Shown here in pieces: positions 28,279-50,075 of a DNA stretch of 64,000 bases; within the stretch, counting starts at the first letter, position 1; each line of letters opens with the position of its first letter. This DNA comes from Pocillopora damicornis. Its lineage: Eukaryota. The notes beneath the pieces are model-generated. The model did no database searches. It saw only the letters and a program-made list of their open reading frames with translations, and was not told the origin of the DNA. The position numbers and the translations under genes are program-made. Where the stretch lies: assembly GCF_003704095.1 (NCBI RefSeq), contig NW_020847002.1, positions 186,001 to 250,000 on the forward strand. Reading direction: 5' to 3'.

Positions 28279-30866
28279 CTAACTCTAACCCACGGATGAG
28301 TGTGCTGCCGTAGGGCGTCTCCCCACAGGCCATGCTTCTCGCTAGCTGGAGGTAATTTACCCCTCCCTTTAGCGAGCTTGAAAAAAGTGACATTAAAAGT
28401 TAAACATACCGAGTAGAACTAAATTAAAAGTTATGAAAGAGAAAAAAACTAATGGCAAATGATGTTTGTCTCACCACTTCCGCTATGACTCGAACACGAT
28501 AAGGCTCATATCCACGGCAGGCTCCAATGTACCTGATTCCCATGTCATACGCCTCACGAGCGTACTTCTGCACGTCCTAGCGGCTCATTGGGCGAGATTC
28601 AAGAGCTAGGTAGCAAGGGAATGAAGAAAGATGTTTTGATATCTTATATAGGTATCAGTAGCATACGAAAGTGTAGAGAAGTGAGTAAAGAGGAGGGAAA
28701 AGCGAGCGCACTGCAAAACCAGAGCTGAACTCGGCTTAGCATGGCATTAATTAACAAGGCATGATACTACTCTTTGAGACCAGGTAAAATTTCTTTGAAT
28801 CTCCGTTGACCACCCAATATATTTTTGAGATGCCTTGACATTTCAAGCTGGCGAAACCAGTAATACAGGGCTTAAATCCGTAAAAAAAGCGCGATAACCG
28901 TGGGCCAACGCCTTTCTTAAGATGTGGCATTCGATTGTTCACCTCCTAGCTATCTCGACTATCAATTTTTTGGAAACTATACCATACCAAATGGGAACTC
29001 AGGCAGACCAGACAATCCTATGCGGTCATATGTCAGCTCAGGGGTGTGATAACAAACAGGTGCACTATCAGATGGCGTTGAAGACCTTCTTTTTCCAAAG
29101 CAGTCTTCATTTCTTTCATGACAGCTAAACAAATGCTGGGATTTTACCAGCACGTGCTACTCTAACAGCGCATTCCCCAGGCAGAATACCAGTCATATCG
29201 CCGGTTAAACTGATGGACAGACACACAACGACTGGTTTCCCTGTGGCCTTTATCATTTCTGTTGCCCATTCGGCTTGCTCAACATACCAAAACAGCTGAT
29301 AAATGAAACAATGAACCACAACAAGTTAAACTGTTAACAAAATTGAAATATACTCATTCCTGTGCGACCAAGAGAGTCAACTGAAAAAGAGAAGAGAAAA
29401 ACTCAACGCTTTGGAAACTATTTCTCCTTATCAGTTGAAATATTAATGGAGAGATGTTGTTCTGATGTGATCTCACCTTCCCCTTCCCTACCCTTCTCCA
29501 TGAGAACAACAACAAAATAACGAAAATAAAAAAGTGAGATACTACAAAAAATAACGTAGTTGTAATTGTCTATGGCGATTACATAGTGCCAAAATAAGAA
29601 ATTCCTGGCTCTGCGTACACATCGATTGGGAATAATAGTTGAAAGTTTTAGTTGTATACCTCCCCTATCAAGAAATCGACGTCATTCTGGATAAAAATAT
29701 CCGTTTGTCTTCTTTCTGCACTACCTCCTTTCCAGGCCCGCTTAGATAATCCGGCACCTGTGAGATGTTCCCCGCCACCAGAGCATCTCCTTTGCTGGCC
29801 ACATCCCTTGCCAGTACGCACGCAGATTGGTTTATGGCTTCATACTATAAATCAAATAGATATGTAGAGTACAGAATCAAGAGGTGTTTGGCTGTTTCGG
29901 TTCTTTCACTATGTGCTAGTCATGTCTGAAGTGTTTAGTTTGGGTTCTTTCTTAAATTTTTAGGTCCAAGATTAAAACTTAGCCCACTGTTCTTTACTTC
30001 TTAAATTTTATTACCTTATCTATTAACATGTTCATTTATCTATGTATTTATTTTGTTTTTGGCGTGAATGGTTTGATCTTATGGGGAAGGCGGACTGTTG
30101 GGCTTAGAACCGGTTGACAATGGAATAATCACACAACTGCATGAATTAGGTTTTTAAAGCGTTACACCCTTTTTTTAACCCCGATCTGTCCAGCTGAATG
30201 GCTGCGATTTTCCAGCTTGTCTTTACTGGCATAAAATGTAAATGTTTGCATTACATCAGCTCCGGCTCTCAGAAATTCACTGTGAAGCTGTCGAACTGCA
30301 ACAAATTAGAGATTCATGCTGTCAGTGAAATGTTTGGTCACGCATTCCCCCAGATCAATTACTCGTCGTCTATCGGGGCAAGAGATTACATTCAAGAGAG
30401 TATCAACAGCTGATATTCTCTTGTTCTATTACAATCTCTTGATCGGGGTCATGACTGAACGATTCGATAGAAATTTGCATTTGTGAAATTATTGGAAGAC
30501 AAGGGCAATACACGAGGGTTTTTCATTCGTACAATGAAGTCAAAACAAAGATTAACAGTCTAAAGAGGAGAAACATATTGTCTGCTGATCCGATGATTAG
30601 AGAGGCAGCAAGGGCCGTAACACCTTCGCCTCTTGTTGAAGGTGATGAGGTCATTTGCATCTTAATCAAACCTCAAGCTTCAAGGCTCGACGGCAGGGTA
30701 ACATTTGACTTATTTCCCTTTACTTACCAGCTTCTGGGTGTTCTACAGTAGCCTCTGGTGTCCAGGCGCCTGCTTTAACATAACCACGCCGCTCCATGCA
30801 GTAAAGGAAGCCGCCATCCCCAATGACAACCTCGACAGTGTCTAATCTCTTCAGAACTCCACGCTT
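28279..30866 (-). pseudogene. BHMT: Betaine-homocysteine S-methyltransferase pseudogene (copy 1)
   Basis: Exon homologues at 30728-30866, 30180-30295, 29660-29844, 29148-29295, 28988-~29142, 28475-28605, 28279-28376. Lesions: no in-frame ATG, 7-nt deletion in exon 3, deletion of intron 4 plus the GVNC motif, a 1-nt deletion in exon 5, a TAG at 28577-28579, GACC changed to GACR, and no last exon found. Confidence 0.9.
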
Positions 30867-32380
30867 CTGCGGGGTGGATTATTAGATAAGAAGCTAGATA
30901 AATCTTAGTGTGAAAACAAGCGCCACAAGAAAATTTACTTTAAGGTAGGCGAATCTTCTCAGCTGACATGATTTATTCAAGGTGTTTGACCTTCTGATGA
31001 TTCGGTGAATATTTTCGTGCATGCAAGACGGACGGTTTGCGCACTCCGTTTGCGCTGCATTGTGGTAGCGTTCTTTTTTCAATGTGGCAGTGAGAACGCG
31101 AAGGAAATCGGCAGAGTTTGACTTGACGGTAAAAGTTATGCTGTTCCTTTTTCCTTTCACCATAGTTACAAGAAATTTGATTGATTCTGAATGTGTAGAA
31201 TTATTTTTTGCACGTATTTGTCGCGTATTCAATAATTCTCAAGGACAAACGCAATCACTGTTTTTTACTCTGTAACTTGAAACCCGTTTTCGAGCGTTCG
31301 ATGAACGTCATAGTTTGAAGCCTTTCAAAGATTAGAAATGTAATGCGTTTTAACACATAACTCGCGCCTAGGTATGAATTTGTTGTTATTCACACAGCCA
31401 TCGGCTGTGAGTGTAACTGCAGCCATTTGTGTAGATTCTTAGGCAAGACTGCAGTTTTGAATTCGAAACGAATTCGTCAAGGAGGAATGACAGGGATAGC
31501 ACAGGCCCGAAAACACTTTAAACTTTCGAAGAAACAGCAACAAACAGTGAATCCCTATTACATCCACTTATCTTCACGCTACTTCGCAGCTACCAAGAAT
31601 GTTCACTCGACCGTGACAGGATGCAAATAACTCACTTTTTGTGTTACGACCATGATGTAACGCAATCAGAGTGCGCAAACCGAAAAAATACGCTATGTTT
31701 TGCAATTCCAATAAGAGAGATGGATTATTTGCAAGGCCAATGAGTATTTTTTGTCGACTCAGTGGCTCATAATTTTCCTTGTTTAGCTATCATCATATAC
31801 CAGTGGCTGGTAAAAAATGAAACCTCTCGTTTTTCAGTTTAAACCTTGAATGTGTAAAATAAGCCCAAAAGAGATTGTGATGAAGATCAACCACAATGAA
31901 CAAAACAGCTTCAAATCACGCGAACAATAATCTTGAAGCCTGGATTTGAATGAGGGCATACGTTCGTGGTACAGATTTTGAACAGTCAACGCCTGACGAA
32001 ATGGTTAATTTTCTGATTTCATCTTACTCGTTATAACGACTACTCGTCGTGATTTGCCTCTTATTTCATTTTCTCCTGAGTCCGTTCCGCTCCCTACTCC
32101 CATACTCTCTTGTGCAACTTTGCTATTTGTTCTTGAAAGGCTGCTCAGTTCATTTTTTGCTTCCTGCGTTTATTTCCGTACTTCTGAATAGGATAAATAT
32201 GCCTGTGTGAAATCACTCTACAGACAGCCGTATTTTTCTAAGACTCTCGTGGGCAAACCTTGCTGGTTAATTTTTGTCGGTTGACTTATGCTCAATTGTA
32301 CGTGTTTGTCCGGTTTCCACTCCTGCTTTTCTTTGTCTTGTTTAGCGCGTTTTTGAGGTTTCTCATTAAAGCGATGCTTT

Positions 32381-49089: not shown

Positions 49090-50075
49090 TACTGGATCAG
49101 ATCCTAGATTATGACAAACCGTTTTGCAAAATTTGGTGCAGAGCTATTGATAACAAAAACTTATCGCTGAAGAAAATAAAATATCCAAAAAAGTCTCTTG
49201 GCACCTCCGAGCTTTAAACCAAAATACAAGCACACAGTACGTCATTAGCAAGCTGACTCAGCAATACTGTGACATCGAAAGTAAGACTTGGGAAAAGCCC
49301 TAATTAATGCAAACAGAATACTGACACTCAGTTTCATGGTTCAGTGAGTTTGTGCGTATGCAGCAAGCTTATGTAGTTCTTCGTTAGTAGTCAGAGTCTT
49401 TTGCTGAATCAAGTTCTTGTCTTCCACTTTTTAAAGTAATCTTAAAAGATTTCTCAATTGTGAATCCAGCTCACGCAAAGTGCTACTGAACGGCCGACTG
49501 CTAGTGGGCAATGAAATCGGCAAACCCTGAAAATCATTAAAAGTAACAATAAAACATGATGGAACATTACTTTCTCTTGCCTTCTTCACTTGCCTTCTCT
49601 TATTTTCTCTTTTTGAACTTCGGCTTTTTTTAATACATCGGTCGGACTTGATTGAGCTTATTTAAAATTAGCTTTAACATAACCCCTTCTCTCCATACAG
49701 AACGAAAAGCCCCCATCTCCTACAATAACCTCGCTTGCATCAAGACGCTCTAAAATCCCTCTCTTTGATGAAGACATTGCATAAACCGAAACATTATTTT
49801 GGAAAACGAGAACAAGCGCAATGATACTAAAAATTTTCAGTTATGCTCAGCTTTAAAACAAAGTAGCCCTAACCCTAAGCAAAAACTTGTTTTATCGAGT
49901 TCAAAACAAGCTCAACTAGTTTGACTAGACAACTTGACAATTAGACTGTCCTTAAGTCATTGCATCTGCTAAAGAAATTAGTACTTAAATCCTAAAGACG
50001 TTTACATCGAAATAGCTCTCCTGCCTCTGACCCGCCTTGCTCAAGACGGAAATAATTTTGGAGAAACCACAAAGA
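49090..50075 (-). pseudogene. BHMT: Internally deleted tandem duplicate of BHMT (copy 3)
   Basis: An exon-1 fragment at 49671-49777 ([36 protein letters not shown]) lies ~150 bp from a last-exon homologue at 49341-49526 that carries indels. The flanks match the 3' (~42250-42520) and 5' (~46893-47200) flanks of copy 2. Confidence 0.9.

What the first reader, a model, noticed from the sequence alone, without database searches (positions are those of the whole stretch)
28279..50075. Glycine-betaine catabolism gene cluster: three BHMT copies around DMGDH
Seen: pseudo-BHMT (-), DMGDH (+), BHMT (-) and a BHMT remnant (-) within 22 kb. Established: BHMT converts betaine to dimethylglycine and DMGDH oxidises it to sarcosine, two consecutive steps; human DMGDH lies head-to-head with BHMT2/BHMT. 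Inference: an animal metabolic cluster conserved since the cnidarian-bilaterian split. This is relevant to corals, which hold large betaine pools.
Basis: partly seen in the sequence, partly recalled or inferred. Interest (0 to 1): 0.7.

Follow-up and report, generated by a model that had tools for sequence, protein, structure and literature searches.

The report
Coral BHMT–DMGDH pair with altered partners
In this coral the gene for the second step of betaine breakdown sits between one working and two dead copies of the first-step gene, a pairing found in several other corals and in vertebrates and likely very old, although the neighbouring copies have a changed substrate pocket and may not use glycine betaine.

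Summary
An intact, spliced DMGDH (32506-41593, +) faces a broken but still transcribed BHMT (copy A) head-to-head. It meets an intact BHMT (copy B) tail-to-tail, followed by an internally deleted duplicate of B (copy C). Both intact genes are already annotated in Pocillopora.

The pairing is no local accident. Accession order and contig DNA show it in Oculina, Orbicella, two Porites and unnamed coral contigs, gene numbers suggest it in Aiptasia, and fishes, turtle and pig have it. A is an old paralogue that is intact in other corals.

- The linked copies form a derived hexacoral clade that lost donor-pocket Tyr160 (13 of 13); the vertebrate-like BHMT lies elsewhere.
- The BHMTs induced with DMGDH in low-salt Acropora are unlinked types.
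- No invertebrate bilaterian could be properly tested, and a published three-gene survey calls the block a vertebrate novelty.

This is a two-family gene pair, not a pathway cluster. Descent from the cnidarian-bilaterian ancestor is likely (about 0.6), not shown. The scan had not reported it on other DNA.

The parts
28279..32028 (-). BHMT copy A, transcribed pseudogene of an old paralogue clade. Exons: non-coding 5' exon ending at 32028 (start not fixed, about 32100-32290 in one run), short start exon 30969-30955 with lost donor, 30866-30728, 30295-30180, 29844-29660 (7-nt deletion), 29295-29148 fused to a 5'-truncated exon ending at 28988 (Cys217 motif deleted, further 1-nt deletion), 28605-28475 (TAG stop, Cys300 to Arg), 28376-28279; last exon absent
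   Evidence: 614-632 bits to full-length A-clade proteins against 501 to copy B; DNA identical in 2 of 2 DNA runs; spliced joints in 2 of 2 RNA runs
30979..31726 (.). High-copy repeats inside the first intron of copy A; they widen the start-to-start distance to 1537 bp against 778 bp in L071
   Evidence: depth spikes in DNA runs; distances
32029..32505 (.). 5' exon of copy A and likely shared divergent promoter; two ATTGG (reverse CCAAT) boxes 29 bp apart at 32382 and 32411, with the same spacing in L071
   Evidence: joint 30866-32028; RNA cover; motif positions; promoter function inferred
32506..41593 (+). DMGDH (paralogue 1), intact, 15 exons, 875 aa
   Evidence: stored record pdam_00015006
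41594..42519 (.). Stretch between the two stop codons, spanned by RNA contigs: the 3' UTRs of DMGDH and BHMT-B likely meet or overlap
   Evidence: X18 record 7, X19 record 14, X16 record 3; L022 shows the same in another coral
42520..46892 (-). BHMT copy B, intact, 8 exons, 408 aa; zinc cysteines kept, donor pocket changed (Y160L, F261I, 7-residue insertion)
   Evidence: stored record pdam_00015007
49341..49777 (-). BHMT copy C, recent duplicate of B with an internal deletion: 33 codons of exon 1 joined to the end of intron 7 and a damaged last exon; homology with B's flanks runs from about 49094 to beyond 49808
   Evidence: 89% over 138 nt at the 5' piece

Best explanation
DMGDH lies head-to-head with one BHMT paralogue and tail-to-tail with another, an arrangement shared by several stony corals and likely inherited from a BHMT-DMGDH pair in the common ancestor of cnidarians and bilaterians. 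Shown: the gene structures, the lesions of A and C, transcription of A, B and DMGDH, and the pairing in other corals and in vertebrates. Inferred: BHMT duplicated locally in early hexacorals. The copies that stayed beside DMGDH (A, B) changed their methyl-donor pocket, while the vertebrate-like copy ended up elsewhere on the same chromosome. A short divergent promoter likely drives A and DMGDH together and holds the pair; in Pocillopora A decayed but is still read from it, and B remains the working neighbour. B would still move a methyl group to homocysteine (zinc and homocysteine residues kept), most likely from a betaine-type donor that need not be glycine betaine. DMGDH would oxidise dimethylglycine in mitochondria, whichever BHMT made it.
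For: Oculina tags: B-type G000216/217/218, DMGDH G000220, A-type G000221/223. Orbicella XP_020604437 and XP_020604441 on one 818-kb contig; Porites lobata CAH3156069 and CAH3156067; P. harrisoni tags 005435 and 005433. Desmophyllum B-type tags 016526-28 and A-type 016533 on one contig, DMGDH tag not seen. Direct DNA: L068 has a convergent full B-type gene 2.3 kb after DMGDH; L071 has an A-type gene head-to-head, starts 778 bp apart. Aiptasia BHMT AIPGENE10977 lies between DMGDH AIPGENE10961 and 10986 by number (PMC9334593 passages). Vertebrates: Gymnothorax tags G00045430 and G00045450; seahorse and turtle in one block (PMC8851819 supplement rows); pig order ARSB, DMGDH, BHMT2, BHMT, JMY (PMC10741191 table). 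A/B clade with anemone members 100/99. The vertebrate-like BHMT shares the longest-contig length with DMGDH-1 in Porites lutea, two Montipora and Acropora palmata. Promoter: A's 5' exon ends 478 bp from the DMGDH start codon, paired CCAAT boxes kept.
Against: No invertebrate bilaterian shows the pair here: six non-cnidarian DMGDH loci with 2.3-7.4 kb of 3' flank hold no BHMT, and none reaches far enough 5'. PMC8851819 files the block as 'Vertebrata novel' (needs three genes; file cut when stored). No third gene is shared between the coral and vertebrate neighbourhoods. The linked copies are not the vertebrate-like ones. L069 has no BHMT in 2.0 kb before DMGDH. The second DMGDH has no BHMT within the 60 kb fetched. 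In Acropora millepora the BHMTs induced with DMGDH at low salinity are the unlinked types. In Aiptasia the text calls BHMT up-regulated while a supplement sheet lists the same gene as down-regulated. Accession and gene-number order is a proxy, not a map.
Confidence: 0.55

Rival explanations
1. The pair formed twice, once in hexacorals and once in vertebrates. The two genes were long on one ancestral chromosome, and coral BHMT duplicates raised the odds that one landed beside DMGDH.
For: At least 8 BHMT copies on 5 scaffolds and 2 DMGDH genes in this genome; rough same-chromosome chance 0.011; 'Vertebrata novel' label; no shared third gene; BHMT lies near DMGDH-like genes in 3 of 80 bacterial loci too, so the pairing can recur.
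Against: It needs two rare events giving the same pair; the coral pair includes a head-to-head orientation like the recalled human one; a third BHMT type sits 15 tags from DMGDH in Oculina, which fits an ancestral BHMT at this place.
Confidence: 0.27
2. One reading: a co-regulated glycine-betaine breakdown unit in which the linked BHMT makes the dimethylglycine that the linked DMGDH consumes, kept by selection for joint control.
For: Consecutive steps (PMC7240134 passages); B keeps 14 of 16 listed catalytic, pocket and interface residues; BHMT and DMGDH rise together in Orbicella lesions (PMC11036075 passages; BHMT copy not identified) and in Aiptasia.
Against: Y160 is lost in 13 of 13 and F261 in 11 of 13 linked-clade proteins but kept in 8 of 8 vertebrate-like ones; both line the substrate site (PMC9713302 passage); the head-to-head partner is dead in Pocillopora; the Acropora-induced BHMTs are unlinked.
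Confidence: 0.3
3. The pair is ancient but neutral: an old adjacency that survives through slow rearrangement and overlapping UTRs, with no selection for pathway co-regulation.
For: RNA contigs span the 3' gap in this and another coral, which would make breakage costly; copy A could die without loss of the arrangement; partners and orientation vary (A absent from the 5' flank of L069).
Against: The neighbours differ wholly between corals and vertebrates, so only this pair would have survived.
Confidence: 0.15

Closest known systems
Vertebrate ARSB-DMGDH-BHMT2-BHMT-JMY block
   Same: DMGDH next to duplicated BHMT genes (pig order, PMC10741191; seahorse and turtle block 1516, PMC8851819 supplement); one duplicate, BHMT2, has changed donor (PMC4516251 abstract and passages)
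   Different: No shared flanking gene; coral copies flank DMGDH on both sides; the coral linked copies are a hexacoral clade and not BHMT2, which is mammal-only
Mammalian BHMT (EC 2.1.1.5; PDB 1umy, 4m3p, 8d45, 1lt7)
   Same: E about 1e-158 over residues 4-401; D26, G27, G28, W44, F76, Y77, E159, C217, F267, C299, C300, H338, R346, W352 kept in copy B
   Different: Y160L, F261I and a 7-residue insertion before the F261 loop
Mammalian DMGDH (EC 1.5.8.4; PDB 4pab, 5l46, 4p9s)
   Same: 1223-1228 bits over the whole mature chain; same four Pfam domains
   Different: Stony corals have two paralogues; only paralogue 1 was found beside BHMT
Conserved ancient microsyntenic pairs (Irimia et al. 2012, PMC3514665)
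   Same: Unrelated neighbours, 5'-5' orientation, short gap, presumed shared control
   Different: Their criterion is four or more lineages; here vertebrates, stony corals and perhaps an anemone. Their pair list could not be read

Membership tests
BHMT (EC 2.1.1.5), copy B | Homocysteine S-methyltransferase barrel, full length | tested here: met
   PF02574 E 8.8e-47; PDB alignment
BHMT (EC 2.1.1.5), copy B | Zinc ligands C217, C299, C300 and homocysteine residues D26, E159 | tested here: met
   residue roles from PMC9713302
BHMT (EC 2.1.1.5), copy B | Aromatic substrate pocket W44, F76, Y77, Y160, F261, F267 | tested here: not met
   4 of 6 kept; Y160L and F261I. It belongs to the BHMT protein family, but glycine-betaine specificity is not established
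BHMT (EC 2.1.1.5), copy B | Glycine betaine used as methyl donor | not testable with these tools
   needs an enzyme assay
BHMT (EC 2.1.1.5), copies A and C | Open frame with three zinc cysteines | tested here: not met
   A: frameshifts, stop, C217 motif deleted, C300R; C: most exons deleted
DMGDH (EC 1.5.8.4) | DAO, FAO_M, GCV_T, GCV_T_C architecture and closest solved relative a DMGDH | tested here: met
   (1228 bits against 344 for bacterial dimethylglycine oxidase)
DMGDH (EC 1.5.8.4) | Distinct from sarcosine dehydrogenase | tested here: inconclusive
   Named hits are DMGDH and the protein nests among them, but the tree had no SARDH outgroup
DMGDH (EC 1.5.8.4) | Mitochondrial presequence | not tested
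   N-terminus is Arg/Ser-rich by eye; no predictor run
Conserved ancient microsyntenic pair (Irimia 2012) | Linked with four or fewer genes between in four or more lineages | tested here: inconclusive
   vertebrates and stony corals yes; anemone by gene number only; invertebrate bilaterians lacked flank
Conserved ancient microsyntenic pair (Irimia 2012) | 5'-5' orientation with short gap | tested here: met
   window and L071; vertebrate orientation recalled only
Conserved ancient microsyntenic pair (Irimia 2012) | Correlated expression of the linked genes | tested here: inconclusive
   for; against; contig depths cannot rank genes
Metabolic gene cluster in the plant/fungal sense (definition recalled: three or more non-homologous pathway genes) | Three or more unrelated pathway genes together | tested here: not met
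   Only BHMT and DMGDH; identified neighbours are a lipoxygenase, an RRM protein, DBR1 and a Tim44-like gene

The most novel reading that the evidence does not exclude
BHMT-DMGDH is a two-enzyme pair on a shared divergent promoter kept since the cnidarian-bilaterian ancestor. In both hexacorals and mammals the copy facing DMGDH was re-tooled for another methyl donor, so the coral A/B clade is an undescribed methyltransferase that feeds other abundant coral osmolytes (other betaines or sulfonium compounds) into methionine.
Probability: 0.25. Interest if true: 0.7.

Novelty: new member of a known kind. Interest (0 to 1): 0.42.

Why it matters
Linked consecutive enzymes kept across corals and vertebrates would add a metabolic example to the ancient gene pairs, most of whose known examples involve developmental genes (recalled). 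For coral biology the practical point is that 'BHMT' in stress studies is a family of differing paralogues. The one beside DMGDH is not the vertebrate-like enzyme, so betaine-breakdown readings from expression tables need the copy named. A changed donor pocket gives a direct, cheap enzyme test on how corals use their osmolyte pools.

Tried and rejected
Assembly error behind copy A: rejected; two DNA runs are identical to the window and an RNA contig of a related animal keeps the 7-nt and Cys217 deletions, while lacking the 1-nt deletion. Copy A as a recent duplicate of B: rejected; it scores higher with a separate intact clade. BHMT beside the second DMGDH: none in 60 kb nor in L047/L048. DMGDH beside the other BHMT loci: none in the 20-30 kb fetched at each of four scaffolds. 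BHMT-DMGDH fusion proteins: longest of the best 150 representatives was 570 aa. Bacterial operon origin: 3 of 80 loci have a near-full DMGDH-like gene nearby, at 29-39% identity; not pursued. Matching species pairs for invertebrate bilaterians: the BHMT and DMGDH hit lists shared no such species. Literature: searches found no paper on animal BHMT-DMGDH synteny; others gave only expression, general synteny and vertebrate mapping papers; one found nothing and 57 one useful paper on Tyr160; 80 and 88 added nothing. Supplements: Irimia 2012 not readable and may list the pair; PMC10719294 no hits, one file unread; PMC8809688 and PMC7240134 gave no usable gene ids; PMC9334593 did not name flanking genes; PMC6611638 passages gave no ids; PMC12389381 passages gave no orientation. 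Earlier scan findings: none on this pair in animals. No structure or complex was predicted.
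Full report
Anatomy. Exon borders were set by coordinates and splice signals. DMGDH runs 32506-41593 on +, 15 exons, 875 aa, all introns GT-AG; it has the four DMGDH Pfam domains and aligns end to end with rat and human DMGDH. BHMT-B runs 46892-42520 on -, 8 exons, 408 aa. Stored Pocillopora damicornis records pdam_00015006 and pdam_00015007 on a contig of the same length as the window's scaffold show that both are already annotated as neighbours. RNA contigs from 3 of 3 RNA runs confirm the displayed joints and span the gap between the two stop codons, so the 3' UTRs likely meet (contigs are unstranded, so this is a hint).

Broken copies. Copy A has a lost donor after its short start exon, a 7-nt deletion, a deletion that removes an intron and the Cys217 motif, a 1-nt deletion, a stop, Cys300 to Arg and no last exon. 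Two of two DNA runs match it exactly over 28332-31265, and two of two RNA runs show spliced A transcripts whose first exon ends at 32028, 478 bp from the DMGDH start codon. A is closer to an intact clade from other corals (614-632 bits for full-length members) than to B (501 bits). Copy C is a recent duplicate of B, 89% identical at its 5' piece, with most exons deleted.

Own genome. Two exon searches found further BHMT genes on C2374, C523 (two), C2178 and C2045 and a second DMGDH on C3883; counts are lower bounds. No DMGDH lay in the 20-30 kb fetched around those BHMTs, and no BHMT in 60 kb around the second DMGDH.

Other corals. By accession or tag order on one contig: Oculina has B, B, B, DMGDH, A, A (tags 216-223; 219 and 222 not seen); Orbicella, Porites lobata and P. 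harrisoni have a B-type gene within two to four numbers of DMGDH-1; Desmophyllum has B-type and A-type tags five apart, with the DMGDH tag not seen. Of 54 metagenome loci, 3 hold BHMT. Among DMGDH-1 loci with 2 kb or more of flank, 2 of 2 have a convergent B-type gene 3' (L022, L068) and 1 of 2 an A-type gene 5' (L071 yes, L069 no). The window and L071 share two reverse CCAAT boxes 29 bp apart before the DMGDH start; such boxes are common, so this is weak. In Aiptasia a BHMT gene number lies between two DMGDH numbers (PMC9334593, passages); which BHMT type it is and the true order are unknown.

Beyond cnidarians. Vertebrate linkage is seen in a moray eel by tags, in seahorse and turtle (PMC8851819, supplement rows) and in pig (PMC10741191, passages and table). 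The human head-to-head orientation is recalled. Invertebrate bilaterians remain open: six non-cnidarian loci with 2.3-7.4 kb of 3' flank have no BHMT and none reaches the 5' position. PMC8851819 labels the block 'Vertebrata novel' in the stored, cut file; its method needs three genes and cannot see a lone pair. No flanking gene is shared with vertebrates.

Which BHMT is linked. A and B form a clade with anemone proteins (100/99), apart from a vertebrate-like hexacoral clade (unrooted, LG+G4, 32 rows picked from the hits; one search is a wider quick tree of 71 rows). The vertebrate-like gene is on a different scaffold from DMGDH-1 in this genome, P. lobata and Orbicella, but shares the longest-contig length with it in four chromosome-scale assemblies. 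All 13 linked-clade proteins lack Tyr160 and 11 lack Phe261, whereas 8 of 8 vertebrate-like proteins keep both; the one further row, a third coral type, has other pocket changes. Both residues line the substrate site of human BHMT (PMC9713302, passage). Zinc and homocysteine residues are kept in B, so methyl transfer is likely but the donor is uncertain. BHMT2 is a precedent for a donor switch after tandem duplication (PMC4516251, abstract and passages).

Co-regulation. In low-salt Acropora millepora DMGDH-1 rises with two BHMTs whose sequences, read by eye, are the vertebrate-like type and a divergent unlinked type (PMC5557254, passages and supplement rows). BHMT and DMGDH rise together at Orbicella lesions, copy unnamed (PMC11036075, passages). 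The Aiptasia text and supplement disagree on direction. Linkage is thus not needed for co-induction.

Verdict. A real, conserved two-family gene pair with local duplication and decay. Ancestry at the cnidarian-bilaterian split is about 0.6, two origins about 0.27, the rest unresolved; the full mechanism gets 0.55. The rival scores overlap, since the glycine-betaine and neutral readings can each hold with ancestry. Ten paper searches found no account of the coral pairing, but most subscription papers are not held and the Irimia 2012 pair list could not be read (PMC3514665: abstract and passages only). Interest is moderate and rests on the untested deep ancestry and the altered donor pocket.

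Noticed in passing
window 22547-28099 (+): Lipoxygenase gene ending 180 bp from copy A, with a weak WSC-like hit near its start; its C-terminus ends in Thr, as recalled for coral allene-oxide-synthase fusion lipoxygenases.
   Followed up: partly
window 52000-61250: Compact run of an RRM gene (RBM8A-like by eye, -), intronless DBR1 (55151-56712, -) and a Tim44-like gene (+); DBR1 and the Tim44-like gene start head-to-head about 140 bp apart.
   Followed up: partly
window 1400-15000 (+): Dolichol-kinase-like and SH2-adaptor-like genes, named by eye; the exons scanned gave no Pfam hit.
   Followed up: partly
window 30944 to 33153 (+): One RNA contig (X15, depth 6) joins a GT-AG splice from inside copy A's first coding region to DMGDH exon 2: a possible minor upstream DMGDH start, antisense to A.
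   Followed up: no
window 48862-50300: Unspliced RNA-run contigs cover copy C in X16 and X19; transcript or DNA carry-over not resolved.
   Followed up: no
L004, L005, L007, L010 (G000 C523, C2178, C2045): Four further BHMT genes with other pocket changes (for example altered F76/Y77 and Y160 positions in the tblastn output): the coral BHMT family looks diversified for donors.
   Followed up: partly
L045:5486-7133 (-): In this non-cnidarian locus the 3' neighbour of DMGDH looks like a guanylate cyclase (motif recalled), not BHMT.
   Followed up: no
window 62400-62760: Short direct and inverted repeats of about 60 bp, resembling a miniature inverted-repeat element (seen).
   Followed up: no
L076, L077: Bacterial contigs with a 72%-identical animal-type BHMT; L076 also has a DMGDH-like gene about 3 kb away.
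   Followed up: no
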